DNA of 64,000 nucleotides from positions 46,918 through 110,917 of IMG/VR virus record IMGVR_UViG_2974695582_000001. One strand, 5' to 3'. This document shows, in pieces, positions 6,225-62,346 of the stretch (position 1 is the first letter of the stretch; every line of letters begins with the position of its first letter). The notes beneath the pieces were generated by a model. The model was given only the letters and a program-made list of their open reading frames with translations. It did no database searches and was not told the origin of the DNA. The stretch comes from a virus (lineage: Duplodnaviria; Heunggongvirae; Uroviricota; Caudoviricetes). A program made the position numbers and the translations under genes.

Positions 6225-6263
6225 AATGGCGGCCCTTCGGGGCCGCAAGCTTTAAGGAGGAAA

Positions 6264-6877: not shown

Positions 6878-6894
6878 CGTAGTACAATAGAAGT

Positions 6895-11211: not shown

Positions 11212-11421
11212 ATGTCAGATTACATGGATTGTGATGCCTGTGACTGGGTTGACATTGAGGTAGGGATGCAAATGGTTCGTCCCGACCATTTTTGCCGGGT
11301 TAAGGCTCATAGAATCGATGCTTATGCATATTATGATAATCTTAGGGGCCAAGAGCTGATTGATGCCGTTGAAGAAAATTGGCCACCGTTTTGGGATGAG
11401 TCATTGGAGAGTATCGAATGA
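11212..11421 (+). CDS. hypothetical protein
   Basis: 69-aa ORF after AGGAGGAG SD. Confidence 0.45.
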   Translation: MSDYMDCDACDWVDIEVGMQMVRPDHFCRVKAHRIDAYAYYDNLRGQELIDAVEENWPPFWDESLESIE

Positions 11422-13343: not shown

Positions 13344-13782
13344 CATTGTTTATACAGGTGGAACATTTGATTTGTTCCATGAAGGACATATTGAGCTTCT
13401 TCGCTCTTGTCATCGAATTGCGGCGGGTGGAGAAGTTATCGTTGGTTTGAATACCGACGAATTTATTGCAGCATTCAAGAACAATCCGCCAATTCAGTCA
13501 TATCGGGAAAGAGCGCTTATGCTTGAATCTTGCCGATATGTTGATAGGGTTGTTCCCAACATCGGAAATGGTAGTTCGACTGTGACTATTCAGGACCAGA
13601 TTGATAATGGTTCTGTAATTGACATTGTGGCTATTGGTTCTGATTGGGCTGGTCGTGATTATTATGGCCAAATGGGGTTTACAAAGAAATGGCTTGATGA
13701 TAGAGATATCATCTTGATTTACATTGACAGAAGGACAGGAATGTCCACAACCAAGATTAAGGATAAGTTGAAGAATGCCTGA
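13336..13782 (+). CDS. cytidylyltransferase (HxGH nucleotidyltransferase, TagD/RfaE-domain-II-like)
   Basis: YTGGTFDLFHEGHIELL is the canonical (T/H)xGH motif. Start chosen at ATG 13336, overlapping the upstream stop. Confidence 0.7.
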   Translation: MSNIVYTGGTFDLFHEGHIELLRSCHRIAAGGEVIVGLNTDEFIAAFKNNPPIQSYRERALMLESCRYVDRVVPNIGNGSSTVTIQDQIDNGSVIDIVAIGSDWAGRDYYGQMGFTKKWLDDRDIILIYIDRRTGMSTTKIKDKLKNA

Positions 13783-27324: not shown

Positions 27325-28131
27325 ATGTTTGGTCGTCGTAACAAGCCTGCCTTCGTTGCTGATAACACTAAGCGAGTTCTGAAGACTGTCAAGGTTATTA
27401 AGCGTGACCCTTCTACGGCTGCTGCGCCTGTTGACATGATTAAGAAGGTTGGCGTTTCCTTCGAGAAGAAGGTTGAGTCTGCTGTCAATCTGAATAAGAA
27501 TGTCAGTGGTCCTTCTCGCGGTGTTGTTTGGAATGTAATTGGTCTGCTTGATGAGTCTTACTCTATGGACCCGTTTTTCTATGATGGCACTGTTCAGGAA
27601 ATTGTTGACCGCGTCCTTGCTTGGTCTGCATCCGTTGATGCTGATGGTCTGGTGCCTTTCGGCGGGTTTGCTAACAGTCACGTTTGGCATGGTGACGTTG
27701 ACCTGACGAACGTTAATAACGTCGTTGCTACAAATGGCTGGTCCCCGTGGGGTGGTACCAACCTTGCTGACTCTCTGAAGGCTATCCTTGACATGGTTAA
27801 GGACATGGGAGATGCTTGGCAGGAGAACCCCATCCTTCTGTTCATTGTGACGGATGGTATGCCTCAGAACCAGGCTCTTGTGAAGCAGTACATTCAGGAG
27901 CTTTCTCAGTATCCTGTGTTCATCAAGATTCTGCGGGTTGGAAATGACCCTGGCGCTAAGGCTTTTGTTGAGGACCTTGACAACATGAACACTGGTCGTC
28001 TGGTTGACAATGTTGAGGCTCCGGATGATGGTCTGCACAAGGGTATGTCTGATGACAAGTTCAATGCTGCTATGATTCACGACATGGACAAGTACGTCAA
28101 TGAGGCTACTGCGGCGGGGCTGCTTAGCTGA
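27325..28131 (+). CDS. von Willebrand factor A (vWA) domain protein (TerY-like)
   Basis: MIDAS motif LLDESYSM. Also GGTNLADSL and FIVTDG. Confidence 0.7.
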   Translation: MFGRRNKPAFVADNTKRVLKTVKVIKRDPSTAAAPVDMIKKVGVSFEKKVESAVNLNKNVSGPSRGVVWNVIGLLDESYSMDPFFYDGTVQEIVDRVLAWSASVDADGLVPFGGFANSHVWHGDVDLTNVNNVVATNGWSPWGGTNLADSLKAILDMVKDMGDAWQENPILLFIVTDGMPQNQALVKQYIQELSQYPVFIKILRVGNDPGAKAFVEDLDNMNTGRLVDNVEAPDDGLHKGMSDDKFNAAMIHDMDKYVNEATAAGLLS

Positions 28132-40884: not shown

Positions 40885-41095
40885 GAAACTGTACTATGTT
40901 CTTATCAAGCCTGGTGGTAAGCCTCTTGGGTATGGTAAGAAGGGTGGCGGTAAGTACACAAGTCGTTCCGCTGCTGAATCTCAGGCAGAAGATTTGAAGA
41001 AGCAAGGTGTCAATGTGACTTTGTGGGAATCTTCAGAGATTGATTGGACTGAAGTTCCAATTTCGGTTCCAGAGAACCAGGAACCTCTATGGTAA
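40859..41095 (+). CDS. hypothetical protein
   Basis: 78-aa ORF. Confidence 0.4.
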   Translation: MMTMAGLPKKLYYVLIKPGGKPLGYGKKGGGKYTSRSAAESQAEDLKKQGVNVTLWESSEIDWTEVPISVPENQEPLW

Positions 41096-41772
41096 AGGTA
41101 CTATTCGTAACTGGTGCCGGGATTTCTGCTAATGCGGGAATCCCAACATACCGTGACGGAGGTTCATCATGGAAGGATGCCGACCTTGAGAAAAAGTCTC
41201 ACGCGTCCCGTTATGGCAACCACCTAGATGAGCTGTGGGATAAGCATTGGGGGCCTGTAGCAAAGGCTATGGGGCAGGCTGAGCCGACACAGACTCATCG
41301 TGCGATTGCTGAGTTTCAGAAGGACAACCCCAGCATCGTAGCAACTCAGAACATCGATGACTTGCACGAACGGGCGGGGTCTGATAACGTAGCTCATGTG
41401 CACGGAAGTATGGTCATTAAGTGCATCCGATGTAAGCGAAGCCACCTTGAAACAAAGTGGTTTGGCAAGGGTGCACCTGTATGTCCTCACTGTGGAAAGT
41501 CTAAGACTCGTCCAGATGTGGTACTCTTTGGTGAGAAGTTGGACCTGAAGATGTTTGCTGCACTTGAGTCTTTCGCTAAGCATGATGCAGATGTTATTGT
41601 TGCTGTTGGAACCTCACTGAATGTGTTTCCTGCGGCGGGTTTGGTAATGGATAATATCGCAAAGTCTGTCATCATCAATAAGGAGAAGACACCTTTCGAC
41701 AAGTTCGCGTACAAGGTCTACAATGATGATTGTGATTCCGTAATTGATGAAGTCCTAGGAGGACTAAACTAA
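41089..41772 (+). CDS. Sir2-family NAD-dependent protein deacylase / ADP-ribosyltransferase (sirtuin)
   Basis: Sir2 family motifs: GAGISANAGIPTYR, QNIDDLHERAG, catalytic HG (AHVHGS). Zn ribbon CIRC...CPHC. Also RPDVVLFGE. Confidence 0.85.
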   Translation: MVKVLFVTGAGISANAGIPTYRDGGSSWKDADLEKKSHASRYGNHLDELWDKHWGPVAKAMGQAEPTQTHRAIAEFQKDNPSIVATQNIDDLHERAGSDNVAHVHGSMVIKCIRCKRSHLETKWFGKGAPVCPHCGKSKTRPDVVLFGEKLDLKMFAALESFAKHDADVIVAVGTSLNVFPAAGLVMDNIAKSVIINKEKTPFDKFAYKVYNDDCDSVIDEVLGGLN

Positions 41773-42249
41773 ATGGTAACGTATGTCAAGGGTGATGCGA
41801 CCAATCCTCAGGGTGATGGTCCAAAGATTATCGCTCACGTCTGCAATGATGAGGGCGGATGGGGAGCAGGATTTGTTCTGGCAGTTGATAAGTTGTCTCC
41901 GCGCCCGAAGAATTTTTACAAGAATGAGTACGCGTTCTATATGAACGCTGGTTATGCATTCATGCCTCTTGGCGTGATTGACGTTGTTCCTGTTGGTGGG
42001 GATGTTTATGTGTGCAATATGGTTGCCCAACATCGCACAATTCGTTCAGTTGAAAAGCCTATCTGTTACAAGTCTCTTGAGATTTGCCTGACTAAGTTGG
42101 CTGAGTATGCTGTTGCTGAAAACGCAACAGTTCATATGCCTCGCATTGGCTGCGGTCTTGCGGGTGGCAACTGGGATGTGGTAGAGTCAATTATCAACCG
42201 CACACTGACTCTTCGAGATGTGGATGTCACTGTGTATGACCTTCCGTAA
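41773..42249 (+). CDS. macrodomain protein (ADP-ribose binding/hydrolase)
   Basis: Macro-fold motifs: VKGDATNPQGDGPKIIAHVCNDEGGWGAGF and IGCGLAGGNW. Lies immediately after the sirtuin gene. Confidence 0.65.
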   Translation: MVTYVKGDATNPQGDGPKIIAHVCNDEGGWGAGFVLAVDKLSPRPKNFYKNEYAFYMNAGYAFMPLGVIDVVPVGGDVYVCNMVAQHRTIRSVEKPICYKSLEICLTKLAEYAVAENATVHMPRIGCGLAGGNWDVVESIINRTLTLRDVDVTVYDLP

Positions 42250-46894: not shown

Positions 46895-46967
46895 GATTCG
46901 TTAGCTCAGTTGGCAGAGCGGGGAACTTTTAATTCCACGGTCCTCGGTTCGAGTCCGAGACGAATCA
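46895..46967 (+). tRNA. tRNA-Lys (anticodon TTT)
   Basis: Acceptor gattcgt/acgaatc. D tagctcagttggcagagc. Loop cttttaa. T-arm ctcgg-ttcgagt-ccgag. Confidence 0.6.
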
Positions 46968-47037
46968 CTATTGACACAGCAGTGTCAAGAATGTTAAGAT
47001 GTTTGTATAATGCAACTTAAGCGAAAGGTAAGGACTA

Positions 47038-47271
47038 ATGCCTAATCTCGATTACAAGGCAGCACACCGATTTGTTCGTGAGCAGCGTAGGGCTGGTAAT
47101 GATGTCAGGTGGGAGCAGTGGGACATGGTTTTCTGGAAGCCCACTCGTCATGGATTTACTAGCACTAATGGTGCTTTTCGGAATGGGCGTTGGGGCGTAG
47201 AGTCTCGAATTGCCGTCAATTCTGATGGAGTGTGGATGGTCCCTAAGAAGAATGTCAAGACTACTCGATGA
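47038..47271 (+). CDS. hypothetical protein
   Basis: 77-aa ORF. Confidence 0.45.
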   Translation: MPNLDYKAAHRFVREQRRAGNDVRWEQWDMVFWKPTRHGFTSTNGAFRNGRWGVESRIAVNSDGVWMVPKKNVKTTR

Positions 47272-47560
47272 ACTAGGTCTGGACCCTGAAGATTTTGAAT
47301 GGCAAGACTTGGCTCTGTGCTCTAATATGCCGACGAGTTTCTTTTATGACCAGTATGAGTCAGACCAAGAAACGGCAAGAGCTACAGACCAAGTCTGTCT
47401 TCATTGTCCAGTTCAGAAGCAGTGCTTTTTCGCAGGAGCCGAAGGAGAGCACGGTGTTTGGGGCGGGGTATACTGGAATGGCGCTGGTAAACCCGACAAG
47501 AACAGAAACTCACATAAGACTGAAGAAGTGTGGGAAGATATACGGAATAAGGTAGCATGA
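47252..47560 (+). CDS. WhiB-like (Wbl) Fe-S transcription factor
   Basis: C-x26-C-x2-C-x5-C (ALC...VCLHCPVQKQC) followed by a GVWGG turn. Actinobacteria/actinophage-specific family. Confidence 0.75.
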   Translation: MSRLLDELGLDPEDFEWQDLALCSNMPTSFFYDQYESDQETARATDQVCLHCPVQKQCFFAGAEGEHGVWGGVYWNGAGKPDKNRNSHKTEEVWEDIRNKVA

Positions 47561-47817
47561 GTCTATACACAAACAATGTAAGAAAGATTTTCAAGACCAT
47601 GCGAGCCCCGTATCCCAACTTTGTGGTTGACATTGTTGAATATCCTGACTACCTCTCTTTGAGAGTGTACAAGGACAATATCGAATCTTTCAGTGAGCCA
47701 CAGAAGGTGGCACTTGCTGAATATCTCTATCAAGTAAGAGATGCAATTAGGTCCGAATGTAAATGTCACATTGAAGGAGTCGAGAATGCGCCACCGTCTA
47801 GAGGAAGACAGGGATAA
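47557..47817 (+). CDS. hypothetical protein
   Basis: 86-aa ORF. Confidence 0.45.
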   Translation: MSLYTNNVRKIFKTMRAPYPNFVVDIVEYPDYLSLRVYKDNIESFSEPQKVALAEYLYQVRDAIRSECKCHIEGVENAPPSRGRQG

Positions 47818-47983
47818 CTATCCTCTGATTTACATCATTCAGGAGGGTGTTTGGGGGTTTCTCGTTCAAGAGAACGCCTTCTACTCTCAGGTGAAGTATA
47901 GCGTTGACGGATTTGAATATAATACCAGTTTGGACAATGATGAGTTCATCATTCCAAACCAGATTGGATACGAGAGAGGTTAA
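47786..47983 (+). CDS. hypothetical protein
   Basis: ATG after AAGGAG. 65 aa. Confidence 0.4.
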   Translation: MRHRLEEDRDNYPLIYIIQEGVWGFLVQENAFYSQVKYSVDGFEYNTSLDNDEFIIPNQIGYERG

Positions 47984-48222
47984 TGAGCCAAGCGGAATGC
48001 AGTTCTTGCGGGAAGCAGCACAATGACCTGAGAGCACATAAGTCGAAATTGCTAGTTGGTACTACGTTTCTTATGTGCCCTACCTGTCGCGCTGGGAAGA
48101 TGGAGCCTAGATTTGCCATCATCCTTGCTGGCAGGTCTCAGGGAGTGGATGTTGTTTCAGAGTATGTTAGGAATAGGCGATATTGTGGCGCTGATATCCT
48201 GGCTAAGGAACTAATGGTCTAA
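47983..48222 (+). CDS. hypothetical Cys-rich protein
   Basis: 79 aa. Contains CSSCG...CPTC. Confidence 0.45.
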   Translation: MSQAECSSCGKQHNDLRAHKSKLLVGTTFLMCPTCRAGKMEPRFAIILAGRSQGVDVVSEYVRNRRYCGADILAKELMV

Positions 48223-48261
48223 CAACTAAAAATGGGCGGGTTTGGAGACAAATCCCGCTGA

Positions 48262-48334
48262 CCCTGGTTAGTTTAATTGGTAAAACGGTCGATTTATAGT
48301 CGGCTATATACAGGTTCGAATCCTGTACTGGGGA
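48262..48334 (+). tRNA. tRNA-Ile (apparent anticodon TAT, AUA-reading)
   Basis: Acceptor ccctggt/actgggg. D tagtttaattggtaaaac. Anticodon stem gtcga/tcggc with loop tttatag. T-arm acagg-ttcgaat-cctgt. Confidence 0.45.
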
Positions 48335-48385
48335 CTTTCAAAAGGCAAATTGGACTTTTAAGTTCTACAGATATATACTTTAAAC

Positions 48386-48817
48386 ATGTCCAGACTAGTG
48401 AATCTAGCTAAGACTGCGGCTGAAAGACCAACGGAGACAATTGAGGGTATCATTGGTACTGCGGTTCTCTTGGTTGGTCTTTGGTTCGTAAGTCCATTTT
48501 ACAAGGCATCTACGTCCGTTTCGGCACAGGCTTGGGCAAGTGGAACTATTCCACAGTACATTGGTGCTGCTCAAGCAATTGTAGGTGCTTTGCTTCTTTA
48601 CGCACTGGTCAGAAAGAATTGGACAAGGAGGCAAGCGGTTCGTCGTCAGACAACGTTTGCCATTTTTGTTCTCTACCTCTTTTATGGATTCTCTTCTACA
48701 ATCATCCTAGGGATGGGGAGGGTGTCATGGATTGCCACATTCGCGCTTGCGCTAATTTCAGGTGTGGCACATCTGAGGTTGAAGTGGGAGGAGGGTGAAG
48801 CTAATGCCCGAAATTAG
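48386..48817 (+). CDS. hypothetical membrane protein (4 TM)
   Basis: 143 aa, hydrophobic. Confidence 0.45.
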   Translation: MSRLVNLAKTAAERPTETIEGIIGTAVLLVGLWFVSPFYKASTSVSAQAWASGTIPQYIGAAQAIVGALLLYALVRKNWTRRQAVRRQTTFAIFVLYLFYGFSSTIILGMGRVSWIATFALALISGVAHLRLKWEEGEANARN

Positions 48818-49106
48818 TCAGGCTTGGCTTGCCCTGCTAGGTGCTGTCATTGGTGGTTCGGGTCTTAAATTCGTTGAACATTGGCTAAGTCGCTCTAAGG
48901 TTAGAGAAGATGCCGCTCTACAAATGCGTACTGAACTTAGGGATGAAATTAAGGTCCTTCGTGAAGAATTGCGCACAGTAGAAGATGAGCTTGATAAGTG
49001 GCGAGGCAAGTATTACGAATTGATGGATGAGTTCATGAAGGCCAAGGGTGACCTAGCGGAAGCTTTGCGTAAAGCGCAGAGTAAAATCAATAATGAGGAT
49101 TCCTGA
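48795..49106 (+). CDS. membrane-anchored coiled-coil protein (holin/lysis-accessory-like)
   Basis: N-terminal TM helix plus a charged coiled coil. Confidence 0.4.
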   Translation: MKLMPEISQAWLALLGAVIGGSGLKFVEHWLSRSKVREDAALQMRTELRDEIKVLREELRTVEDELDKWRGKYYELMDEFMKAKGDLAEALRKAQSKINNEDS

Positions 49107-49176
49107 CCGGTACTCAATGCGAGCGGGGCGCAATATCCCCGCACCCTAAACGATTGTGTAGTACAATGGTTACGGA

Positions 49177-49467
49177 TTGGAGGTGTCGAATTTGGCATTT
49201 TTTGTTGTAAACTCATTTTACTACAATGAGGAAACTGGGAACATGTTTCTCTATCTGACTAAGCCAACAGAGGTTTCATACGAACACTCTGCTGAATATG
49301 CTGCTGAGGATATTTACGAAGCTCAGATTTTCCTAGATGGTGGAATTAGTCTTATTGGTAAGAACAGACCACCTTCTGAGGATGGTACGATTCCTGGTGG
49401 AATGTACGGTCGTACTGCTAACCCTTCCGGTACAGTCACGGCCCCTCTCGAAGAGGCTCCCGAGTAA
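49177..49467 (+). CDS. hypothetical protein
   Basis: 96-aa ORF. Confidence 0.4.
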   Translation: MEVSNLAFFVVNSFYYNEETGNMFLYLTKPTEVSYEHSAEYAAEDIYEAQIFLDGGISLIGKNRPPSEDGTIPGGMYGRTANPSGTVTAPLEEAPE

Positions 49468-49470
49468 GAC

Positions 49471-49500
49471 TTGACAGAGGCTTGACGCTTCTGGTAAGGT
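49471..49500 (+). promoter_or_regulatory. promoter TTGACA-N18-TAAGGT (tandem -35 boxes)
   Basis: Upstream of the tRNA-Glu pair. Confidence 0.4.
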
Positions 49501-49608
49501 ATTAAGTACAAGGTAAGGCAACCGCCCAAGAGTTGCCGACTGTGTTGGACTAAGGAACCAACATAGAGGGTGCGGCATCACTACTTTATCTACATGCATG
49601 GCACTCAT

Positions 49609-49684
49609 GCTCCGGTGGTCTAGTCTGGTCTAGGATACTTGACTCTCAATCAAGAGGGCACGGGTTCGAATCCCGTTCGGAGTA
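49609..49684 (+). tRNA. tRNA-Glu (anticodon CTC)
   Basis: Acceptor gctccgg/tcggagt. D gtctagtctggtctagga. Anticodon stem cttga/tcaag with loop ctctcaa. T-arm acggg-ttcgaat-cccgt. Confidence 0.55.
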
Positions 49685-49789
49685 CAAGCATTGACAATCG
49701 AGCGTACTAGCGCTAGTATTGAGAGAAACCGCAAGATTGTTAATGACTAGGTTGAGTAGCTACCATTACGAACGCTCAATAACCGACAT

Positions 49790-49864
49790 GCCCCGTTAGT
49801 CTAGTGGCCTAGGATTCCGGATTTTCACTCCGCGAGAACATCGGTTCGAATCCGATACGGGGTA
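49790..49864 (+). tRNA. tRNA-Glu (anticodon TTC)
   Basis: Acceptor gccccgt/acggggt. D gtctagtggcctagga. Loop ttttcac. T-arm atcgg-ttcgaat-ccgat. Confidence 0.55.
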
Positions 49865-49865
49865 C

Positions 49866-50054
49866 ATGGGTATTACAGGAAACACACCAAAGTATAAGCG
49901 TGGAGACAGAGTTTACTCAAAGACTTATGGCAGCAATGCTACGGTAGTCGCGGTAGACAACGACAACGCTGTACCGATTTACATTATCAGAATTGACGGC
50001 TCAAAGAAGGACAGCTACAATATTTACGAGCGTCAACTAGGTAATGCACGATAA
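49866..50054 (+). CDS. hypothetical small protein
   Basis: 62-aa ORF. Its start abuts the tRNA-Glu 3' end. Confidence 0.4.
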   Translation: MGITGNTPKYKRGDRVYSKTYGSNATVVAVDNDNAVPIYIIRIDGSKKDSYNIYERQLGNAR

Positions 50055-50258
50055 AATTATTGGGCTTCGGCCCAAGCTTTGTAAGTGGATGGAATGCGAT
50101 AGAGATAAAGGCCGTAAGTAACGTACGTATCTTCAGCGGTGGGGACTCTAACGATGCTGTTCTCCCGTCCCCAAGGGTCCAGATTGGCAGCGAAACTTAC
50201 AAATGTGAGGTTGCATCACGGCTTCGGGCCTCCAAAAATAATCATGAAACCGTGACCC

Positions 50259-50332
50259 TCCGTAGTAGTGAAATGGTATCACTTCTGCTTGCCAAGCAGA
50301 CAGCGCGAGTTCGATTCTCGTCTACGGGACCA
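50259..50332 (+). tRNA. tRNA-Gly (anticodon GCC), genomically encoded CCA
   Basis: Acceptor tccgtag/ctacggg. D gtga-aatggta-tcac. Anticodon stem tctgc/gcaga with loop ttgccaa. T-arm gcgag-ttcgatt-ctcgt. 3' ACCA. Confidence 0.6.
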
Positions 50333-50335
50333 TGA

Positions 50336-50378
50336 ACAGGCACACCGGGTAAAGCCGCACTGCCTGTCTTTTTTATCC
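50336..50378 (+). terminator. Rho-independent terminator
   Basis: ACAGGCAcaccgggtaaagccgcacTGCCTGTcttttttat. Confidence 0.55.
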
Positions 50379-50400
50379 ATAAACAAAGTTAGGATTAGCA

Positions 50401-50922
50401 ATGATTCAGATTGGTATTCGCGTCCGAGTTCTCGATAACTATTCTGGTGGTCTTGGAAATACGATTGGTCGTACTGGCAAGGTTCTTCGTGCTAGCTCGG
50501 AAGGTCTCTACCTCCTTGACATCAAGGGCAGTCGTAAGGCTTCCTGGGGTGACTACACCTACGAGCGAGACGTTATTGTGAAGGCTGACGAAATTGAGCC
50601 GGTCTCCTTCGACCTGAAGGATGCTCAGGGACGTAAGATTGAGCTTGGCGACAAGGTTGCTTACGGTCCTCTCGGTGGTGGTGTTACTATCGGTACTGTT
50701 GTTGATATCGATGAGCGCGAGGGGCGATACGGTTACAAGACTACGAAGTTCCGTCTTGAGACTAATGGTAAGGATTATTTCAACGATGGTGGTGACCGAA
50801 CGATTTCGGGCGGTCACCTTAAGACTTATCGTTGGTATGAGCACTCTGGACGATGTGTTATCATCGAAAAGAATCCGATTAATGCGGATGTGTTTGAACT
50901 GCGCTCGGTTCCTATGCCATGA
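50401..50922 (+). CDS. hypothetical protein (tandem KOW/SH3-like repeats)
   Basis: 173-aa ORF. Confidence 0.5.
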   Translation: MIQIGIRVRVLDNYSGGLGNTIGRTGKVLRASSEGLYLLDIKGSRKASWGDYTYERDVIVKADEIEPVSFDLKDAQGRKIELGDKVAYGPLGGGVTIGTVVDIDEREGRYGYKTTKFRLETNGKDYFNDGGDRTISGGHLKTYRWYEHSGRCVIIEKNPINADVFELRSVPMP

Positions 50923-51086
50923 AGAAGCCAAAGCCACTAGGAAAGGGAAACTACAGAGTTTGCCCTACTTGCGGAGGCCAAGGCGTTAAGGCTAATATGC
51001 GTAAGTATCCAAAGAGTCCAACAAATGATGCTGTCGTTTGGGAAGACTGCAAAACTTGCAAGACTGTTGGTTGGATTGAGGCTTGA
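50919..51086 (+). CDS. DnaJ-type zinc-finger mini-protein
   Basis: ATGA overlap. Contains CPTCGGQG...CKTCKTVG. Confidence 0.45.
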   Translation: MKKPKPLGKGNYRVCPTCGGQGVKANMRKYPKSPTNDAVVWEDCKTCKTVGWIEA

Positions 51087-51112
51087 CAGCCCTGGTCTGA
51101 CTGTGTTACAGT
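51084..51112 (+). promoter_or_regulatory. promoter TTGACA-N17-TACAGT driving a Y RNA plus tRNA-Gly
   Basis: -35 at 51084-51089. -10 at 51107-51112. The Y-RNA motif begins about 10 nt downstream. Confidence 0.45.
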
Positions 51113-51121
51113 AGATATATC

Positions 51122-51224
51122 GGGTCGGACGGATAGGGTTATCTAACAATCAATTGATGATGAGCCTTCGGGCAACCCTGCGGCGGGTATAGCCGCATCT
51201 CCCTTCCTCAACATATCCGATGTA
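51122..51224 (+). ncRNA. Y RNA-like ncRNA, locus 5
   Basis: atCGGGTCGGACGGATAGGGTTATCTAACAATCAATTGATGatgag resembles hY4 GGUCCGAUGGUAGUGGGUUAUC and hY1 ...AAUUGAUUG. Has an internal gcc-ttcg-ggc hairpin. 3' ACATATCCGATG pairs with the 5' TCGGA. Confidence 0.55.
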
Positions 51225-51227
51225 TTT

Positions 51228-51298
51228 GCGGGTGTAGTTTAATGGTAGAACAACAGACTTCCACTCTGTTAGCGGGGGTTCGATTCCCCCTACCCGCT
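51228..51298 (+). tRNA. tRNA-Gly (anticodon TCC)
   Basis: Acceptor gcgggtg/tacccgc. D tagtttaatggtagaac. Anticodon stem acaga/tctgt with loop cttccac. T-arm ggggg-ttcgatt-ccccc. Confidence 0.6.
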
Positions 51299-51310
51299 CG
51301 AAACGAATGT

Positions 51311-51345
51311 CCCCGCTGGTAAAAACTGGCGGGGCTTCGTTGTTT
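51311..51345 (+). terminator. Rho-independent terminator
   Basis: CCCCGCtggtaaaaactgGCGGGGcttcgttgtttc. Confidence 0.5.
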
Positions 51346-51363
51346 CTATGGTAAGATGGAGTC

Positions 51364-51561
51364 ATGGAAGAAATCGTATCCTACAGCTTTGCTGTAGACA
51401 TCTACAAGAATGATTCTGGAACCTTCACCTATGGTGTCTTCCAGGAGATTGAGTCAGATGAGGATGACGAGCTACAGTTGCTTGAGACTGGTGAAGCTGA
51501 TACACTTGCTGAAGCAGCCGAGATTGCTGGTCGTAGCATCAAGACATTGTTCGTCGTCTGA
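51364..51561 (+). CDS. hypothetical acidic protein
   Basis: 65-aa ORF. Confidence 0.4.
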   Translation: MEEIVSYSFAVDIYKNDSGTFTYGVFQEIESDEDDELQLLETGEADTLAEAAEIAGRSIKTLFVV

Positions 51562-51604
51562 ATTTTATGGCAAATTTTGACGAGGGTTCGTAAAGGGCCT
51601 TCTA

Positions 51605-51676
51605 TCCCCCTTAGTGTAATTGGCAGCACGACTGTCTTTGGAACAGTTAGTTCGAGTTCGAGTCTCGCCGGGGGAG
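51605..51676 (+). tRNA. tRNA-Gln (anticodon TTG)
   Basis: Acceptor tccccct/cggggga. D gtgt-aattggca-gcac. Anticodon stem actgt/acagt with loop ctttgga. T-loop ttcgagt. Confidence 0.5.
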
Positions 51677-51700
51677 CAACCATAACAAAAGGAGAAGTTA

Positions 51701-55428: not shown

Positions 55429-55485
55429 TGTACAATTAGGCTAGGGGAGAAATCCCCTAGCTTTTTTGTATTGGAGGAAGCTTGT

Positions 55486-55710
55486 ATGTCCATTGAATCA
55501 TGGGAGAATGAAGGAGGTTTTATCCAGATGACTCATTCATACATTGATGGAATGGGTTTTGAAGAGATGCACGAGGGTAGCCAGCAAGATTGTCTAACTA
55601 AGCAGTGTCGTAGGGAGCGACGGTATTACCGCAGCATCCCGTCAATCGACCCGTGGCCCGAGGGTTCAGGACCCTACGGAACTGACCCGTGGATGCAGGA
55701 AGGTATCTGA
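55486..55710 (+). CDS. hypothetical protein
   Basis: ATG after GGAGGAAG. 74 aa. Confidence 0.4.
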   Translation: MSIESWENEGGFIQMTHSYIDGMGFEEMHEGSQQDCLTKQCRRERRYYRSIPSIDPWPEGSGPYGTDPWMQEGI

Positions 55711-55714
55711 GAAA

Positions 55715-56209
55715 ATGCATGTCGTACCTAAATTTGAAGGTGACCATAGATTCCTCAGCAACTTTTACCACGCGCCTACACGTTTTGTTTTGGCCGATGA
55801 CATCATAGTCATGCCGACTGGCGAACACGCTTTCCAGGCTGCCAAGTGCAACGCGATGCTTGACAAGTCGGAAAAGTTGGAGTACGTTCGTCGTGTTGCA
55901 ACTGCTGAAACTCCCGGCATCGCCAAGCAGGAAGGGCAGAAGGTCAAGATTGACCTTGACCATTGGGAGTCGGTTCGTGTAGATTGTATGCGTGAAGTTG
56001 TCTTCCAAAAGTTCTTGCAGCATCCTGACTTAAGAACACAGCTTCTTAAAACAGGCGATGCTATGCTTGTGGAAGGAAATACCTGGGGTGATAAATTCTG
56101 GGGAAGAGTAGATGGCAAGGGTTTTAATAAGCTCGGTGTCATTTTGATGGAAGTGCGTGGATACTGGCTTTGGCAGACACGCAGAAATAGCCCGGAGATG
56201 GGGTCATGA
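55715..56209 (+). CDS. NADAR-domain protein (YbiA-like; putative ADP-ribose processing / DNA-ADP-ribose glycohydrolase)
   Basis: FLSNFY, EHAFQAAK, W..VR...M, LLKTGDAMLVE, DKFWGRVDGKGFNKLGVILMEVR: canonical NADAR/DUF1768 signature. Confidence 0.8.
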   Translation: MHVVPKFEGDHRFLSNFYHAPTRFVLADDIIVMPTGEHAFQAAKCNAMLDKSEKLEYVRRVATAETPGIAKQEGQKVKIDLDHWESVRVDCMREVVFQKFLQHPDLRTQLLKTGDAMLVEGNTWGDKFWGRVDGKGFNKLGVILMEVRGYWLWQTRRNSPEMGS

Positions 56210-56367
56210 GCGACAGACAACCTAATTTTGCTGTGCGAGATGAAGTAGTGTATCTGGGAATGCTTGGTATTGTAAGACGAGTTCTTCTTGGCAAGAATAT
56301 CAGATACGTTGTGGAATTTGAGCATGGCAGACAGACAATTCCCGAAGGAAAGTTGAAGAGGGCATGA
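56206..56367 (+). CDS. hypothetical small protein
   Basis: 53 aa. ATGA overlap. Confidence 0.35.
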   Translation: MSDRQPNFAVRDEVVYLGMLGIVRRVLLGKNIRYVVEFEHGRQTIPEGKLKRA

Positions 56368-56491: not shown

Positions 56492-56650
56492 ATGGAACCG
56501 AAATACAAGGTCGGGCAAAGAGTAAAGTATGACAATCGAACAGGCATCATTCGTAAGGTCTGGACTACAGACCCCAATGAGACTAAGTATACTGTTGACT
56601 TTTTGCCTGGTAAGCACATTCTGAAGGAAACTCAGATTACAAAGGCTTAA
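56492..56650 (+). CDS. hypothetical small protein (KOW-like)
   Basis: 52-aa ORF. Confidence 0.35.
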   Translation: MEPKYKVGQRVKYDNRTGIIRKVWTTDPNETKYTVDFLPGKHILKETQITKA

Positions 56651-56962: not shown

Positions 56963-57037
56963 GAAAATTATGGCAGATTTTCGGGAGGGTTCGTAAAGGA
57001 CCCTCCTAAGCTTTTGTACCTAACAAAGGATAATAAC

Positions 57038-57335: not shown

Positions 57336-57983
57336 ATGCGTGAGTATTCAAAGACCGATAACCTTTACAAGCGCAACCCGAAGAAGAAGTCTGAGCTGCT
57401 TGTTGGAGAGTACACCCGTCCTGAGTTCGCTCTTATCAATTCTTGGTGGGTTACTGAGAAGGTTGACGGTACCAACGTACGTCTTTGGTTTGACAAGGAC
57501 GAGAACACCAATTATGGTGGTCGCACAGACAATGCACAGTTCAGCCCGGTTCAGCAAGAGTTTATGTCTAACCTTGTTGATTCTATCAAGGAGGATGCGG
57601 TAAGTCTTATTCATCGTCATGGATTGAATGAGCTGCTTATCTTCGGTGAGCTTTATGGACCGAAGATTCTTTCTGGCGGGAATTATTCTGACAGTCTAGA
57701 CTTTCGAGCGTTTGACATGATGGTCAATAACCGGGTATGGTTGAATCCTGATTCGGTGAACCAGAATGCGTCAGACCTTGGTCTGAAGATGGTTCCTAAT
57801 TTTGGAATGATGACCACTGCTCAGATTTTCTTGATGGTTGCGGGTGGCTTTAAGTCCACCTTTGCGAAGAACCCTGAGTTTGATGCTGAGGGTGTAATTG
57901 CTCAACCTCCAGTTAATCTTTATGACCAGCGTGGTGAGCGTGTTAAGTTCAAGTTGAAGACAAAGGATTTGAGGCACGTCTAA
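57336..57983 (+). CDS. RNA ligase Rnl2-like nucleotidyltransferase domain protein
   Basis: N-terminal YSKTDNLY...WVTEKVDGTNVRLWF parallels T4 Rnl2 YSSLENHY...REKIHGTNFSL, with a KxDG motif I. 215 aa (no C-terminal domain). Confidence 0.5.
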   Translation: MREYSKTDNLYKRNPKKKSELLVGEYTRPEFALINSWWVTEKVDGTNVRLWFDKDENTNYGGRTDNAQFSPVQQEFMSNLVDSIKEDAVSLIHRHGLNELLIFGELYGPKILSGGNYSDSLDFRAFDMMVNNRVWLNPDSVNQNASDLGLKMVPNFGMMTTAQIFLMVAGGFKSTFAKNPEFDAEGVIAQPPVNLYDQRGERVKFKLKTKDLRHV

Positions 57984-58966: not shown

Positions 58967-59347
58967 ATGATTGAGTACAACACTACATGTAATGTAAACG
59001 GAACTAACATTCTTTGTGATTTGAAGTATGACAAGGCGAATCCGGCCGAAGTCAGCTTTACATTCCATGTTAACGAGAACTCTCCCGAATGGGTCTTTTC
59101 CAGGGACCTTCTTGGTGAGGTAATGTCTAGTCGTGGTAAGGCTGGTCAGGGTGACGTTCTTCTTTATGACCACGGTGACGCAGTTAGCTTGCTTTTGCGT
59201 TCACCTGAGGGAAAGGGTCTCGCTATTTTCCAGCGAGAGGTCATTAAGGAATTCGTTGATGAGATGTACAATGAAGTTCCAAAGCATGATGATGTCCTTC
59301 CTCTCGATGATGACAGCTTGCAGGAATGGCTAGAGGGTTTGGTTTAA
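58967..59347 (+). CDS. hypothetical protein
   Basis: 126-aa ORF. Confidence 0.5.
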   Translation: MIEYNTTCNVNGTNILCDLKYDKANPAEVSFTFHVNENSPEWVFSRDLLGEVMSSRGKAGQGDVLLYDHGDAVSLLLRSPEGKGLAIFQREVIKEFVDEMYNEVPKHDDVLPLDDDSLQEWLEGLV

Positions 59348-61323: not shown

Positions 61324-62346
61324 ATGCCCGCTGGTATCGAGACGTACAAGGAAATGGCCGCTTTCGCTTCTCTCCGTCAGCCTGCATGGCATGACCTCGG
61401 AACGGTTTTTGACAAGCCTGTTTCGACTGAGGAAATGCTTAAGCTGGCTCACATGCACAACTGGAATCTGCGATTTGAGGATGCATCCGACTGGATGCCT
61501 GGCTTCACTTTCGTGGATGAGACGCTTCACGTGGTTCGTGATAATCCGTTCATTCCCGGTCAGAAGGATGTTCTGGGAACTGTCGGTGGTCGGTATAACA
61601 TCTTCTCGAATGAGCAGATTTTCGACTTCGCTGACACTCTGACGGATGGTCGGCGTCGGTGGGAAACGGCCGGAAGCATTAAGAATGGTCAGAAGGTTTT
61701 CGCTACTCTTGTGGCAACTGATGACCTTGTCCTTGACCCGAATGGTTCTGCTGACACCATCAAGCGCTATATCATGCTGGTTTCCAGCCATGACGGTTCT
61801 ACCACCATGATTATCAAGATGGTGAATACCCGAGTGGTTTGCCAGAATACCCTTAACATTGCTCTTGGTGAGAAGGGTGCTGAGTTCAAGATTCGCCACA
61901 CTCAGGGAATGGAAACCAAGATTCAGGATGCTAAGAAGGCTCTGAGTCTGGCGACTGTTTACGACGAGGCTTTCGAAAAGGGAATGCAGGCTCTCTTTGA
62001 GGCTGAGATGACTCTTACTCAGTTTGAGAAGATTGTTATGGATATCTTCCCGGAGCCGGAAGAGGATGTTCGTGGAAGCCAGAAGAAGTGGGACACCAAG
62101 ATGGACACCATTCTGAACATCTGGCAGAATTCCACTGGTGAGGTTGAGAATCTGCCGAATTCCGCTTACAAGGGATTCAATGTTCTCACTGGATGGAACC
62201 AGTGGCACCGTGGAATCCGAAAGGACAAGAGCGGTAACCCGAACACGGAGAACTTCCTTGCGGCTGGTGCTGGATTCGATGTCAAGACGAACGAATTCCG
62301 CACTGAGGTTTTTGAGCGTATGCAGGAATTCGCTCTGACTGTCTGA
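61324..62346 (+). CDS. phage/plasmid-like protein, possibly DUF932 (TIGR03299) family
   Basis: 340 aa. The N-terminal PAWHDLG-like segment recalls the DUF932 VPWHGLG motif. Tentative. Confidence 0.3.
   Translation: MPAGIETYKEMAAFASLRQPAWHDLGTVFDKPVSTEEMLKLAHMHNWNLRFEDASDWMPGFTFVDETLHVVRDNPFIPGQKDVLGTVGGRYNIFSNEQIFDFADTLTDGRRRWETAGSIKNGQKVFATLVATDDLVLDPNGSADTIKRYIMLVSSHDGSTTMIIKMVNTRVVCQNTLNIALGEKGAEFKIRHTQGMETKIQDAKKALSLATVYDEAFEKGMQALFEAEMTLTQFEKIVMDIFPEPEEDVRGSQKKWDTKMDTILNIWQNSTGEVENLPNSAYKGFNVLTGWNQWHRGIRKDKSGNPNTENFLAAGAGFDVKTNEFRTEVFERMQEFALTV

What the first reader, a model, noticed from the sequence alone, without database searches (positions are those of the whole stretch)
55715..56209. 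Phage NADAR-domain protein: third component of an ADP-ribose toolkit, candidate anti-DarTG
The ORF has the full NADAR signature (FLSNFY, EHAFQAAK, WGxxxxGxGxNxLGxxLMxVR). NADAR proteins were recently shown to remove ADP-ribose from guanine in DNA, reversing DarT toxin modification. Together with the Sir2 family and macrodomain genes about 14 kb upstream, this gives the phage several ADP-ribose-processing activities.
Basis: partly seen in the sequence, partly recalled or inferred. Interest (0 to 1): 0.65.

Follow-up and report, generated by a model that had tools for sequence, protein, structure and literature searches.

The report
Phage NADAR ADP-ribose-removing enzyme gene
This Streptomyces phage gene encodes an intact NADAR enzyme, most likely used to strip ADP-ribose that host toxins attach to phage DNA or RNA bases; this counter-defence is already proven for other phages, so the gene is a credible but untested new member of a known kind.

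Summary
Window 55715-56209 (+) is gene 199 of Streptomyces phage Comrade, a 164-aa stand-alone NADAR protein. Pfam PF08719 scores E 1.2e-25. The AlphaFold model has pLDDT 94 and TM 0.76 to E. coli YbiA and 0.69 to ADP-ribose-bound Phytophthora NADAR. Catalytic E37, K44 and E120 are present. One pyrophosphate-contacting Arg is Gln (Q75) in Comrade. The gene is under purifying selection (dN/dS 0.21) but missing in the relative Jada.

The anti-DarT idea is reasonable but no longer new. Phage orphan NADARs (AdfN) were shown in 2025 to neutralise DarTG1, and gp199 is 44% identical to one of them, AdfN-Bas32. It is about equally similar to Streptomyces NADAR-RibA fusions linked to riboflavin synthesis, and no sister group has bootstrap support. 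It is not DarG1-type or T4-type. NADAR cannot reverse DarT2 (thymidine) modification.

Sir2 (41089-41772) and the macrodomain gene (41773-42249) are real. They form their own adjacent pair 13.5 kb away. The macrodomain is SCO6735-like, a type that removes thymidine-linked ADP-ribose.

Verdict: new member of a known kind, of modest interest.

The parts
55715..56209 (+). Gene 199 (HWB84_gp079): 164-aa stand-alone NADAR-domain protein
   Evidence: ORF. Pfam PF08719 E 1.2e-25. phrog_1017 E 6e-42. AF2 model pLDDT 94.1. Foldseek hits YbiA 2b3w at TM 0.76 and PnNADAR 8bau at TM 0.69. RefSeq annotates it as 'glycosylase'.
55751..55768 (+). FLSNFY motif (residues 13-18); S15, N16 and F17 are invariant in the family alignment
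   Evidence: Sequence; conservation.
55823..55846 (+). EHAFQAAK (residues 37-44). E37 corresponds to PnNADAR E43 (distal ribose). K44 corresponds to PnNADAR K50 (phosphate and adenine). The same two positions are E36 and K43, the residues mutated in AdfN-T4.
   Evidence: Residue mapping from the alignment to 8bau, checked against the residue list in PMC11543638. Both are invariant in 122 of 123 homologues.
55925..55942 (+). K71-Q72-E73-G74-Q75-K76 loop. K71 corresponds to PnNADAR K75 and E. coli C7 NADAR K115, which is needed for DarT1 rescue in vivo. Q75 sits where PnNADAR has R79, a pyrophosphate contact; 106 of 123 homologues have Arg there.
   Evidence: The Gilson orthologue has Arg at this position.
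56072..56104 (+). EGNTWGDKFWG (residues 120-130). E120 corresponds to PnNADAR E125, the Glu that marks the YbiA/NADAR families; DarG1 has Asp and T4-type NADARs have His at this position. D126 and W129 correspond to D130 and W133.
   Evidence: E120 and D126 are invariant in 123 of 123 sequences.
55438..55463 (+). Terminator-like hairpin (11-bp stem followed by a T run) just upstream of the small gene cassette. It is a consensus match only.
   Evidence: The total number of terminator-like sites in the region is not above the shuffle expectation.
55486..55710 (+). Gene 198, a 74-aa hypothetical protein that ends 4 nt before the NADAR start. No Pfam family.
56206..56367 (+). Gene 200, a 53-aa hypothetical protein. 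Its ATG overlaps the NADAR stop codon (ATGA), which suggests translational coupling. It is a paralogue of gene 201.
56983..57007 (+). Terminator-like hairpin (10-bp stem) after gene 202. It may mark the end of the gene 198-202 cassette.
41089..41772 (+). Gene 161, a Sir2 family protein with intact GAGIS, TQNID, HG and Cys4 motifs. It is genomic context and is not shown to act with the NADAR.
   Evidence: Pfam SIR2 E 1.9e-36. Best PDB hits are Sir2Af1 and CobB-type deacylases at E 1e-30. The Faust orthologue is 87% identical.
41773..42249 (+). Gene 162, an ALC1-like, SCO6735-type macrodomain that starts directly after the Sir2 stop codon. It is genomic context.
   Evidence: PDB hits 2afc/2fg1 at E 4e-40 and SCO6735 5e3b at E 5.6e-37. 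It keeps the equivalents of SCO6735 Val25 (in AHVCND) and Gln85 (in VAQHR). The function of SCO6735 is taken from PMC9411070.

Best explanation
gp199 is a soluble, single-domain NADAR N-glycohydrolase made during infection. The proposed mechanism is as follows. It binds the ADP-ribose moiety through K44, K71, W84, R88, D126 and W129. It positions the distal ribose between E37 and E120. It then hydrolyses the N-glycosidic bond between ribose C1'' and the exocyclic amino group of a modified base, releasing free ADP-ribose and restoring the base. The preferred substrate would be ADP-ribosyl-guanine in phage DNA or RNA. Because the enzyme is a Glu-type NADAR, it probably also acts on ADP-ribosyl-cytosine. 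In biological terms it would be an orphan antitoxin-like counter-defence (AdfN-like). It would undo host ADP-ribosyltransferase attack on phage nucleic acid, from a DarT1-like toxin or a pierisin/ScARP-like enzyme, so that replication and transcription can go on.

Shown here: the NADAR identity, the fold, the conserved catalytic residues, purifying selection, accessory-gene status, and 44% identity to an experimentally validated AdfN.

Inferred: the substrate, the host enzyme it opposes, and any effect on infection.
For: - NADAR family and fold.
- Every residue shown by structure or mutagenesis to matter in PnNADAR or E. coli C7 NADAR (PMC11543638) is present except one: E37, K44, K71, W84, R88, E120, D126 and W129.
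- The closest experimentally tested relative is AdfN-Bas32 (bas32_0066): 44% identity over 146 aa, E 1e-36. It neutralises DarT1 in E. coli and rescues three phages from DarTG1, but not from DarTG2 (PMC11825919).
- All four NADAR families tested remove guanosine-linked ADP-ribose in vitro. The Glu-type families also remove the cytidine-linked form (PMC11125620; PMC12945103).
- The host genus has guanine/cytosine-directed ADP-ribosyltransferases, ScARP and Scabin (PMC12945103).
- The gene is orphan. Pfam finds no ADP-ribosyltransferase next to it or in the larger hypothetical proteins scanned across the genome.
- It is under purifying selection: dN/dS 0.21 against the Gilson orthologue.
- It is dispensable and patchy, as anti-defence genes often are: Jada keeps only a 26-aa remnant.
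- The phage clade and AdfN-Bas32 have pI about 7.8, whereas the RibA-fused NADAR domains are acidic, pI 5.2-5.7. This is weak support.
- K71 is present in gp199 and in AdfN-Bas32. It is the equivalent of C7 NADAR K115, which is needed for DarT1 rescue in vivo. E. coli YbiA, which failed to rescue, has Ala there.
Against: - There is no biochemical or genetic test of this protein or of any member of its clade.
- It is equally similar to Streptomyces NADAR-GTP cyclohydrolase II fusions (about 42-45% identity), whose context points to riboflavin intermediates. It also almost reaches the TIGR02464 riboflavin N-glycosidase cut-off, 71.9 against 73.7 bits.
- Bootstrap analysis gives no supported grouping with AdfN-Bas32: 0 of 60 replicates.
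- Q75 replaces the conserved Arg that contacts the ADP-ribose pyrophosphate, which could weaken ADP-ribose binding in Comrade itself.
- In-vitro activity does not guarantee activity in cells. YbiA and T4 gp30.3 expressed alone did not rescue DarT1 toxicity.
- DarTG1 is not reported for Streptomyces in the papers I read.
- The protein lacks the basic N-terminal extension that DarG1 NADARs are proposed to use for ssDNA binding; TM to 8bat is 0.42.
Confidence: 0.55

Rival explanations
1. gp199 is a riboflavin-pathway damage-control N-glycosidase of the YbiA/COG3236 type. It would hydrolyse the reactive ribosylaminopyrimidine phosphates made by GTP cyclohydrolase II, adjusting host flavin metabolism or detoxifying the cell during infection. 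It would not act on nucleic acids.
For: The best PDB sequence hit is E. coli YbiA, E 3e-16. TIGR02464 'riboflavin biosynthesis intermediates N-glycosidase' scores 71.9 bits, just below its 73.7 cut-off. The closest relatives in Streptomyces genomes are NADAR fused to GTP cyclohydrolase II. gp199 has the Glu signature of the YbiA family. The two substrates are chemically alike, since both carry an N-ribosyl group on an exocyclic amine.
Against: No riboflavin or GTP cyclohydrolase gene is annotated anywhere in the Comrade genome. It is unclear what a lytic phage would gain. gp199 does not group with the RibA fusions, which form their own clade at 100% bootstrap, nor with K-12-type YbiA. All three independently acquired phage NADAR lineages tested so far act against DarT1. 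YbiA-type enzymes also hydrolyse guanosine- and cytidine-linked ADP-ribose in vitro.
Confidence: 0.12
2. gp199 degrades small soluble ADP-ribose derivatives rather than modified nucleic acid. Candidates are NAD-derived immune signals or toxic products (cyclic ADP-ribose variants, ADP-ribose-1''-phosphate) and by-products of RNA repair (Tpt1/KptA chemistry). It would work beside the phage's RNA ligases, polynucleotide kinase and macrodomain.
For: Iyer et al. 2022 argue from gene context that most phage Macro, NADAR, SLOG and Nudix proteins target low-molecular-weight ADP-ribose derivatives or RNA-repair products (PMC9503650). gp199 lies 1.1 kb upstream of an RNA ligase (Pfam RNA_ligase E 1.5e-17). 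The genome is rich in tRNAs and carries a tmRNA, a Ro-like protein, a second RNA ligase and a polynucleotide kinase. Bacterial members of the same NADAR radiation are fused to NMNAT-like nucleotidyltransferases or to Macro domains.
Against: The papers I read describe no NADAR acting on such small molecules. No Tpt1/KptA or 2H phosphoesterase was found: the two 'phosphoesterases' scanned belong to the calcineurin-like superfamily. Experiments on phage NADARs so far support DNA de-ADP-ribosylation.
Confidence: 0.15
3. gp199 is the antidote, or eraser, for an ADP-ribosyltransferase encoded by the phage itself, like the YarT-YbiA or DarT1-NADAR pairs. It would limit self-damage while the phage enzyme modifies host nucleic acid.
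For: NADARs do serve as cognate antitoxins of ADP-ribosyltransferases in bacteria. The genome contains many unannotated small ORFs.
Against: No ADP-ribosyltransferase domain was detected in the neighbours or in about 35 of the larger Comrade proteins scanned with Pfam. The flanking genes encode 74- and 53-aa proteins, too small for a known ADP-ribosyltransferase fold. Jada lost the NADAR and is still a viable isolated phage. The one 'ADP-ribosyltransferase' annotation among relatives (Faust gene 156) is the Sir2 orthologue.
Confidence: 0.04

Closest known systems
AdfN-Bas32 (bas32_0066, Escherichia phage IrisVonRoten/Bas32; Johannesman et al. 2025, PMC11825919)
   Same: Both are phage-encoded, orphan, single-domain NADARs of about 150-165 aa. 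They share 44% identity over 146 aa. Both have the EGNTWGD motif, the Glu-type catalytic residue, the K71 equivalent and a similar pI. AdfN-Bas32 neutralises DarT1 and rescues phages from DarTG1.
   Different: The hosts are in different phyla and the phage families are unrelated. No supported common clade was found. Comrade has Gln where Bas32 has the conserved Arg. It also has a 7-residue insertion after K44 and a 15-residue C-terminal tail. Its activity is untested.
E. coli YbiA (PDB 2b3w), riboflavin-intermediate N-glycosidase
   Same: YbiA is the best structural and PDB-sequence match: 40% identity over 141 aa and TM 0.76. Both have the core fold without extensions and the Glu-type active site.
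   Different: YbiA belongs to a separate clade with an EHTxNDAYW motif, supported at 100% bootstrap. It has Ala at the K71 position. It sits in a LexA-controlled chromosomal operon and did not rescue DarT1 toxicity in cells.
Streptomyces NADAR-GTP cyclohydrolase II (RibA) fusion proteins (TIGR02464 'ribofla_fusion' type)
   Same: They are the nearest relatives within the host genus, 42-45% identical, and share the EGN[TD]WGD motif.
   Different: They are fused to RibA and are acidic. They are chromosomal and sit beside conserved neighbouring genes. They form a distinct clade.
DarG1 / DarT1-associated NADAR antitoxins (BC4488 family; G. lovleyi 8bat, E. coli C7)
   Same: They belong to the same superfamily and share the catalytic Glu and Lys. 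The predicted chemistry is the same, hydrolysis of ADP-ribosyl-guanine.
   Different: DarG1 has Asp rather than Glu at the third catalytic position. It has a basic N-terminal extension proposed to bind ssDNA, and it is encoded beside DarT1. gp199 has none of these features. Foldseek to 8bat gives TM 0.42 and E 0.75.
AdfN-T4 (gp30.3) and the T4-like phage NADAR cluster
   Same: Both are phage orphan NADARs. The catalytic Glu and Lys have the same spacing: E36/K43 in T4 and E37/K44 here.
   Different: BLASTP finds no detectable similarity, E 2.7. T4 has His in place of E120. T4-type NADARs remove the guanosine-linked but not the cytidine-linked modification, and AdfN-T4 needs the context of a T-even phage infection.
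S. coelicolor SCO5665 NADAR, partner of ScARP (PMC12945103)
   Same: [quoted passage not shown]
   Different: The authors place it in the 'NADAR' family, not the YbiA family. I could not obtain its sequence, so no direct comparison was made here.

Membership tests
NADAR superfamily (Pfam PF08719 / DUF1768) | Profile match above the curated gathering score | tested here: met
   91.1 bits against a 35.1 cut-off, E 1.2e-25, covering profile positions 9-159 of 163.
NADAR superfamily (Pfam PF08719 / DUF1768) | Alpha-helical core flanked by small beta-hairpins (YbiA-like fold) | tested here: met
   AF2 model pLDDT 94.1. Foldseek gives 2b3w at E 6.9e-10, TM 0.76, and 8bau at E 4.8e-8, TM 0.69. No other fold scores below E 0.1.
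NADAR superfamily (Pfam PF08719 / DUF1768) | Conserved catalytic Glu and Lys in the ExxxQxxK helix (PnNADAR E43 and K50) | tested here: met
   E37 and K44, each conserved in 122 of 123 homologues.
NADAR superfamily (Pfam PF08719 / DUF1768) | Pyrophosphate-contacting residues (PnNADAR R79, W89, R93, D130, W133) | tested here: inconclusive
   W84, R88, D126 and W129 are present. The R79 equivalent is Q75 in Comrade, where 106 of 123 homologues have Arg, 10 have Lys and 5 have Gln. The adjacent K76 might compensate.
YbiA family in the sense of de Souza and Aravind (Glu-type NADAR) | Glu at the PnNADAR E125 position (Asp in BC4488/DarG1, His in T4-like phage NADARs) | tested here: met
   E120, invariant in 123 of 123 sequences. 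The criterion is taken from PMC11543638.
Riboflavin-intermediate N-glycosidase (NCBIfam TIGR02464, equivalog domain) | Score at or above the curated cut-off | tested here: not met
   71.9 bits against 73.7, a narrow miss.
Riboflavin-intermediate N-glycosidase (NCBIfam TIGR02464, equivalog domain) | Fusion to, or genomic link with, RibA/RibD or other riboflavin genes | tested here: not met
   The protein is stand-alone, and no riboflavin gene is annotated in the Comrade genome. The Streptomyces relatives that do carry the fusion form a separate clade.
DarG1 (DarT1-associated NADAR antitoxin) | Encoded next to a DarT1 ADP-ribosyltransferase | tested here: not met
   The neighbours are 74-aa and 53-aa proteins with no Pfam family. 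Pfam detected no ADP-ribosyltransferase in the proteins scanned.
DarG1 (DarT1-associated NADAR antitoxin) | Asp at the third catalytic position and a basic N-terminal beta-beta-alpha extension | tested here: not met
   gp199 has Glu (E120). Its NADAR domain starts at residue 10 or earlier, and TM to 8bat is 0.42.
AdfN (phage orphan NADAR that counters DarTG1; a functional class) | Phage-encoded NADAR with no cognate toxin and with intact catalytic residues | tested here: met
AdfN (phage orphan NADAR that counters DarTG1; a functional class) | Removes ADP-ribose from guanine in DNA and restores phage growth on DarTG1 hosts | not testable with these tools
   This needs biochemistry and genetics. 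The only basis here is 44% identity to AdfN-Bas32.
AdfN (phage orphan NADAR that counters DarTG1; a functional class) | Phylogenetic grouping with a validated AdfN (T4, Bas32 or Bas60 type) | tested here: not met
   No BLASTP similarity to T4 gp30.3, E 2.7. Grouping of the phage clade with Bas32 was recovered in 0 of 60 bootstrap replicates. The Bas60 type was not compared.
DS32_2 NADAR anti-phage protein (NCBIfam NF053876) | Score at or above the curated cut-off | tested here: not met
   38 bits against 240. PADLOC gives only a weak hit to PDC-M42C, 32 bits.

The most novel reading that the evidence does not exclude
Comrade-type phages may carry two complementary erasers of DNA/RNA base ADP-ribosylation, matched to the enzymes of Streptomyces hosts. 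The first is the Glu-type NADAR gp199, acting on guanine- and cytosine-linked ADP-ribose, the dual product of pierisin-family enzymes such as ScARP/Scabin or of a DarT1-like toxin. The second is the SCO6735-type macrodomain gp162, acting on thymine-linked ADP-ribose, the product of DarT2. If so, pierisin-family transferases or unknown guanine/cytosine-directed relatives would act as intracellular anti-phage weapons in actinomycetes. gp199 would be the first phage enzyme known to counter cytosine ADP-ribosylation.
Probability: 0.15. Interest if true: 0.6.

Novelty: new member of a known kind. Interest (0 to 1): 0.3.

Why it matters
If gp199 removes ADP-ribose from bases, the AdfN counter-defence principle would extend from coliphages to actinophages, and to a separate, well-supported NADAR lineage (97% bootstrap) found in more than 100 Streptomyces phage genomes. 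It would also imply that Streptomyces uses guanine- or cytosine-directed nucleic-acid ADP-ribosylation against phages. That has been suggested for ScARP but not shown. A natural comparison is available for testing this, because close relatives differ in the gene: Jada lacks it and Gilson has it. As it stands, the finding is a sound functional annotation and not a discovery. NADARs in viruses were catalogued in 2012 and 2022, their guanine-ADP-ribose hydrolase activity was shown in 2023, and their anti-DarTG1 role in phages was shown in 2025.

Tried and rejected
1. Assigning the substrate by phylogeny. A neighbour-joining tree of 119 NADAR domains, with 60 bootstrap replicates run on a 100-taxon subset, shows a star-like radiation. 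The phage clade (97%), the RibA fusions (100%) and the K-12 YbiA type (100%) are each solid, but nothing links the phage clade to AdfN-Bas32, to the RibA fusions or to the Arthrobacter stand-alone NADARs. Phylogeny cannot decide the function.

2. Guilt by association in bacterial relatives. Naive ORF calling around the 80 genome loci produced mostly spurious frames in high-GC DNA. Only the domain fusions were usable: RibA, NMNAT-like nucleotidyltransferase and Macro.

3. Looking for a phage-encoded ADP-ribosyltransferase partner. Pfam scans of about 35 larger Comrade proteins found none. Divergent ADP-ribosyltransferases and small ORFs could have been missed.

4. The supplementary tables of PMC11825919, which list the NADAR accessions in the authors' tree, are not held. 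I could not check whether a Streptomyces phage NADAR was already included.

5. I could not obtain sequences of DarT1, ScARP, SCO5665 or AdfN-Bas60. The host-side question (does S. griseus carry a guanine/cytosine-directed ADP-ribosyltransferase?) and those direct comparisons therefore stay open.

6. PADLOC gave no informative hit for the NADAR, only PDC-M42C at 32 bits.

7. The promoter and terminator scan is only suggestive, because site counts do not clearly exceed the shuffle expectation.

8. I considered reading Sir2, macrodomain and NADAR as one three-part module and rejected it. Sir2 and the macrodomain are a tight, conserved pair 13.5 kb away from the NADAR, and the Sir2 resembles CobB-type deacylases.
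Full report
**Identity of the window and the ORF**

The window is Streptomyces phage Comrade (NC_048728.1; Stanwilliamsviridae, Gilsonvirus; host S. griseus ATCC 10137), record positions 46918-110917. The finding is gene 199 (HWB84_gp079), at 55715-56209 on the + strand. It has an ATG start and encodes 164 aa. RefSeq calls it 'glycosylase' and GenBank calls it 'hypothetical protein'. Orthologues in related phages carry names from 'hypothetical' to 'NADAR family protein'.

**Checking the observation**

- Pfam NADAR (PF08719) matches at E 1.2e-25, 91 bits against a 35-bit cut-off, over nearly the whole profile.
- PHROGs places the protein in phrog_1017, function unknown, E 6e-42.
- NCBIfam TIGR02464 (riboflavin-intermediate N-glycosidase domain) scores 71.9 bits, just under its 73.7 cut-off.
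The last is WGxxxGxGxNxLGxxLMxVR, one residue shorter than written.
- An AlphaFold2 model built from a 56-sequence alignment has mean pLDDT 94.1.
- Against the PDB, the model matches only NADAR structures with confidence: E. coli YbiA 2b3w (E 6.9e-10, TM 0.76) and Phytophthora NADAR bound to ADP-ribose, 8bau (E 4.8e-8, TM 0.69). The DarT1-associated NADAR of G. lovleyi, 8bat, matches weakly (E 0.75, TM 0.42).

The protein has the minimal YbiA-like core fold, without the N-terminal extension of DarG1-type NADARs.

**Active site**

I mapped the residues described for PnNADAR and E. coli C7 NADAR (PMC11543638) through the HMMER alignment to 8bau. I checked the register against the paper's residue list.

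| gp199 residue | PnNADAR equivalent | Role |
|---|---|---|
| E37 | E43 | distal ribose |
| K44 | K50 | phosphate and adenine |
| K71 | K75 (C7 NADAR K115) | needed for DarT1 rescue in vivo, not for catalysis |
| W84 | W89 | pyrophosphate contact |
| R88 | R93 | pyrophosphate contact |
| E120 | E125 | distal ribose |
| D126 | D130 | pyrophosphate contact (water-mediated) |
| W129 | W133 | pyrophosphate contact |

In an alignment of 123 family members, E37, K44, W84, E120 and D126 are invariant or nearly so.

There is one deviation. The position of PnNADAR R79, which contacts the pyrophosphate, is Gln (Q75) in Comrade. At that position 106 of 123 homologues have Arg, 10 have Lys and only 5 have Gln. 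The Gilson orthologue has Arg. This is a recent substitution in the Comrade lineage. A Lys follows it (K76). Its effect is unknown.

E120 makes this a Glu-type NADAR, the YbiA/NADAR families. DarG1 has Asp at this position and T4-like phage NADARs have His. T4 gp30.3 does show His in that column and has no BLASTP similarity to gp199, E 2.7.

**What is known about such proteins**

- NADARs hydrolyse ADP-ribose from the N2 of guanine and act as DarT1 antitoxins (PMC11543638).
[quoted passage not shown] None of them removes the thymidine-linked form. YbiA and T4 gp30.3 expressed alone do not rescue DarT1 toxicity in cells (PMC11125620).
- Johannesman et al. 2025 (PMC11825919) showed that phages carry orphan NADARs, named AdfN, that remove ADP-ribose from phage DNA and defeat DarTG1. 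Three unrelated lineages were tested (T4, Bas32, Bas60). All countered DarTG1 and none countered DarTG2.
- A 2026 paper (PMC12945103) showed that Streptomyces ScARP and Scabin ADP-ribosylate both guanosine and cytidine in DNA and RNA. Glu-type NADARs (SCO5665, YbiA types) remove both modifications, whereas DarG1 and T4 NADAR remove only the guanosine-linked one. The authors speculate that ScARP may also target actinophages. They state that numerous Streptomyces species carry DarTG2.
- Iyer et al. 2022 (PMC9503650) had already catalogued viral NADARs. They proposed low-molecular-weight ADP-ribose derivatives or RNA-repair products as the main substrates.

**Where gp199 sits among NADARs**

tblastn finds homologues in 468 phage records, including 126 Streptomyces phages, T5-like coliphages, Vibrio phages and Bacillus phage AR9. 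The T5-like hit in Escherichia phage IrisVonRoten carries locus tag bas32_0066, so it is AdfN-Bas32. It is 44% identical to gp199 over 146 residues, E 1e-36. E. coli YbiA is 40% identical, E 5e-22.

A scan of one genome per bacterial species found relatives of 35-50% identity. In Streptomyces and Streptosporangiaceae these are NADAR domains fused to GTP cyclohydrolase II (Pfam GTP_cyclohydro2 E 2e-65). In Clostridia they are fused to an NMNAT-like nucleotidyltransferase, and in one Oscillospiraceae genome to a Macro domain.

In a neighbour-joining tree with bootstrapping:
- the phage clade containing gp199 is monophyletic (97%);
- the RibA fusions (100%) and the K-12-type YbiA group (100%) are separate;
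- no sister relationship of the phage clade is supported, with Bas32 or the RibA fusions in 0% of replicates and with Arthrobacter stand-alone NADARs in 7%.

Homology therefore says 'catalytically competent Glu-type NADAR' but cannot decide between nucleic-acid and small-molecule substrates.

Two weak pointers favour the nucleic-acid reading. K71 is shared with AdfN-Bas32 and DarG1 but is Ala in YbiA, although the RibA fusions also have Lys there. The phage proteins are near-neutral to basic (pI about 7.8), while the RibA-fused domains are acidic (pI 5.2-5.7).

**Gene context and evolution**

gp199 lies in a long + strand block of small, mostly unannotated genes interspersed with tRNAs. Upstream are a KTSC-domain protein and a thioredoxin. 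An RNA ligase lies 1.1 kb downstream.

Gene 198 (74 aa) ends 4 nt before the gp199 start codon. The start of gene 200 (53 aa) overlaps the gp199 stop codon (ATGA). Two strong terminator-like hairpins, at 55438-55463 and 56983-57007, bracket genes 198-202. The scan as a whole is not above the shuffle expectation, so this is only suggestive.

Pfam detects no ADP-ribosyltransferase, riboflavin gene or Tpt1/2H enzyme in the neighbours or in about 35 larger proteins across the genome. The annotation of the full genome lists none either.

Comrade and Gilson orthologues are 77% identical, with dN/dS 0.21, which indicates purifying selection. In the close relative Jada the gene is gone except for a 26-aa C-terminal remnant, next to a LAGLIDADG endonuclease gene. 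The gene is therefore functional but accessory, which fits a conditionally useful counter-defence gene.

**The 'toolkit' claim**

Gene 161 (41089-41772) is an intact sirtuin: Pfam E 1.9e-36, with best PDB matches to Sir2Af1 and CobB/SIRT5-type deacylases.

Gene 162 (41773-42249) starts directly after the gene 161 stop codon. It is an ALC1-like macrodomain that aligns over its full length with S. coelicolor SCO6735 (5e3b, E 5.6e-37) and keeps the equivalents of SCO6735 Val25 and Gln85. SCO6735 hydrolyses thymidine-linked ADP-ribose on DNA, inhibits DarT and rescues DarT toxicity (PMC9411070).

The Sir2-macrodomain pair is conserved across the family. The Faust Sir2 is 87% identical and is annotated there as 'ADP-ribosyltransferase'. 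Many metagenomic contigs appear to carry both a NADAR and a macrodomain homologue, judging from matching longest-contig lengths.

The phage therefore does encode three NAD/ADP-ribose-related proteins. Sir2 and the macrodomain form their own unit, either a deacylase plus O-acyl-ADP-ribose deacylase or a writer-eraser pair. Nothing links them mechanistically to gp199. The more interesting possibility is that the macrodomain and the NADAR are parallel erasers for different modified bases.

**Conclusion**

The most likely function (confidence about 0.55) is an AdfN-like orphan glycohydrolase. It would remove ADP-ribose from guanine, and probably cytosine, in phage nucleic acid, countering a host DarT1-like or ScARP-like transferase.

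The rivals are a riboflavin-intermediate N-glycosidase (0.12), degradation of soluble ADP-ribose derivatives or RNA-repair by-products (0.15), and an antidote for a phage-encoded transferase (0.04). The remaining probability is unassigned.

Noticed in passing
window 41773-42249 (gene 162): This macrodomain aligns over its full length with S. coelicolor SCO6735 (E 5.6e-37) and keeps its Val25 and Gln85 equivalents. SCO6735 removes thymidine-linked ADP-ribose made by DarT2, and DarTG2 is reported in many Streptomyces. This gene, not the NADAR, is therefore the candidate anti-DarTG2 factor. It is annotated only as hypothetical.
   Followed up: partly
window 41089-41772 (gene 161) and L089:1321-2001 (Faust gene 156): The Sir2 gene directly abuts the macrodomain gene. 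It is highly conserved: 87% identical in Faust, where the macrodomain is only 55% identical. The Faust orthologue is annotated 'ADP-ribosyltransferase'. The best PDB matches are CobB/Sir2Af-type deacylases, so it is open whether the pair is a deacylase plus O-acyl-ADP-ribose deacylase or an ADP-ribosyl writer-eraser pair.
   Followed up: partly
window 56206-56367 (gene 200) and 56492-56650 (gene 201): These two proteins of about 52 aa lie immediately downstream of the NADAR and are paralogues (27% identity, pairwise BLASTP E 5e-7). The gene 200 start codon overlaps the NADAR stop codon. Gene 200 has no Pfam family; gene 201 was not scanned. Their function is unknown.
   Followed up: partly
L085 (Streptomyces phage Jada) 3402-4232: In Jada the NADAR gene is reduced to a 26-aa C-terminal remnant inside a 59-aa ORF, followed by a LAGLIDADG homing endonuclease gene. 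This is a natural NADAR-less relative that would be useful for comparison.
   Followed up: partly
window 55937-55939 (codon Q75 of gene 199): Comrade and its closest relatives have Gln where about 94% of the family has Arg or Lys, at the pyrophosphate-contacting position of PnNADAR R79. Gilson has Arg. The substitution could alter ADP-ribose affinity.
   Followed up: partly
L019, L020, L028, L030, L038, L039, L043 (Streptomyces genomes), around 6000-7100 in each: These Streptomyces chromosomes encode NADAR fused to GTP cyclohydrolase II. The same downstream ORFs recur across these loci, and one of them looked to me like a glycosyltransferase and another like a thymidylate kinase, by eye only. 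This may be a specialised biosynthetic cluster and not the housekeeping riboflavin operon.
   Followed up: no
L015, L025, L044 (Clostridia) and L050 (Oscillospiraceae): Members of the same NADAR radiation are fused to an NMNAT-like cytidylyltransferase domain, or to a Macro domain in L050. These fusions link the subfamily to NAD and ADP-ribose metabolism as well as to riboflavin.
   Followed up: no
window 58967-59347 (gene 209): This hypothetical protein matches Pfam SsgA, the Streptomyces sporulation and cell-division protein family (E 7e-15). A phage copy could manipulate host septation.
   Followed up: no
window 11418-11927 (gene 75, annotated 'GTP-binding domain'): It gives weak, sub-threshold Pfam matches to the YspA/YpsA SLOG families (E 6.5e-4). 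SLOG is another domain class tied to NAD and ADP-ribose conflicts in phages.
   Followed up: no
window 27325-28131 (gene 113) and 61324-62346 (gene 215): These hypothetical proteins have clear Pfam domains that the record does not annotate: vWA-TerF-like (E 1.2e-25) and DUF932 (E 6.6e-44).
   Followed up: no
window 12064-13782 (genes 77-79): Two glycosyltransferases are followed by a 148-aa cytidylyltransferase-like protein (Pfam CTP_transf_like E 1.3e-16). A dNMP kinase gene (82) follows after two further genes. This might be a sugar-nucleotide or DNA-modification module.
   Followed up: no
window 19372-39728 and 46895-51677: These stretches hold a dense RNA toolkit: about 30 tRNA genes, a tmRNA, a Ro-like RNA-binding protein, two RNA ligases (a third ligase-like gene is at 57336-57983) and a polynucleotide kinase. 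This fits defence against host tRNA- or mRNA-targeting nucleases.
   Followed up: no
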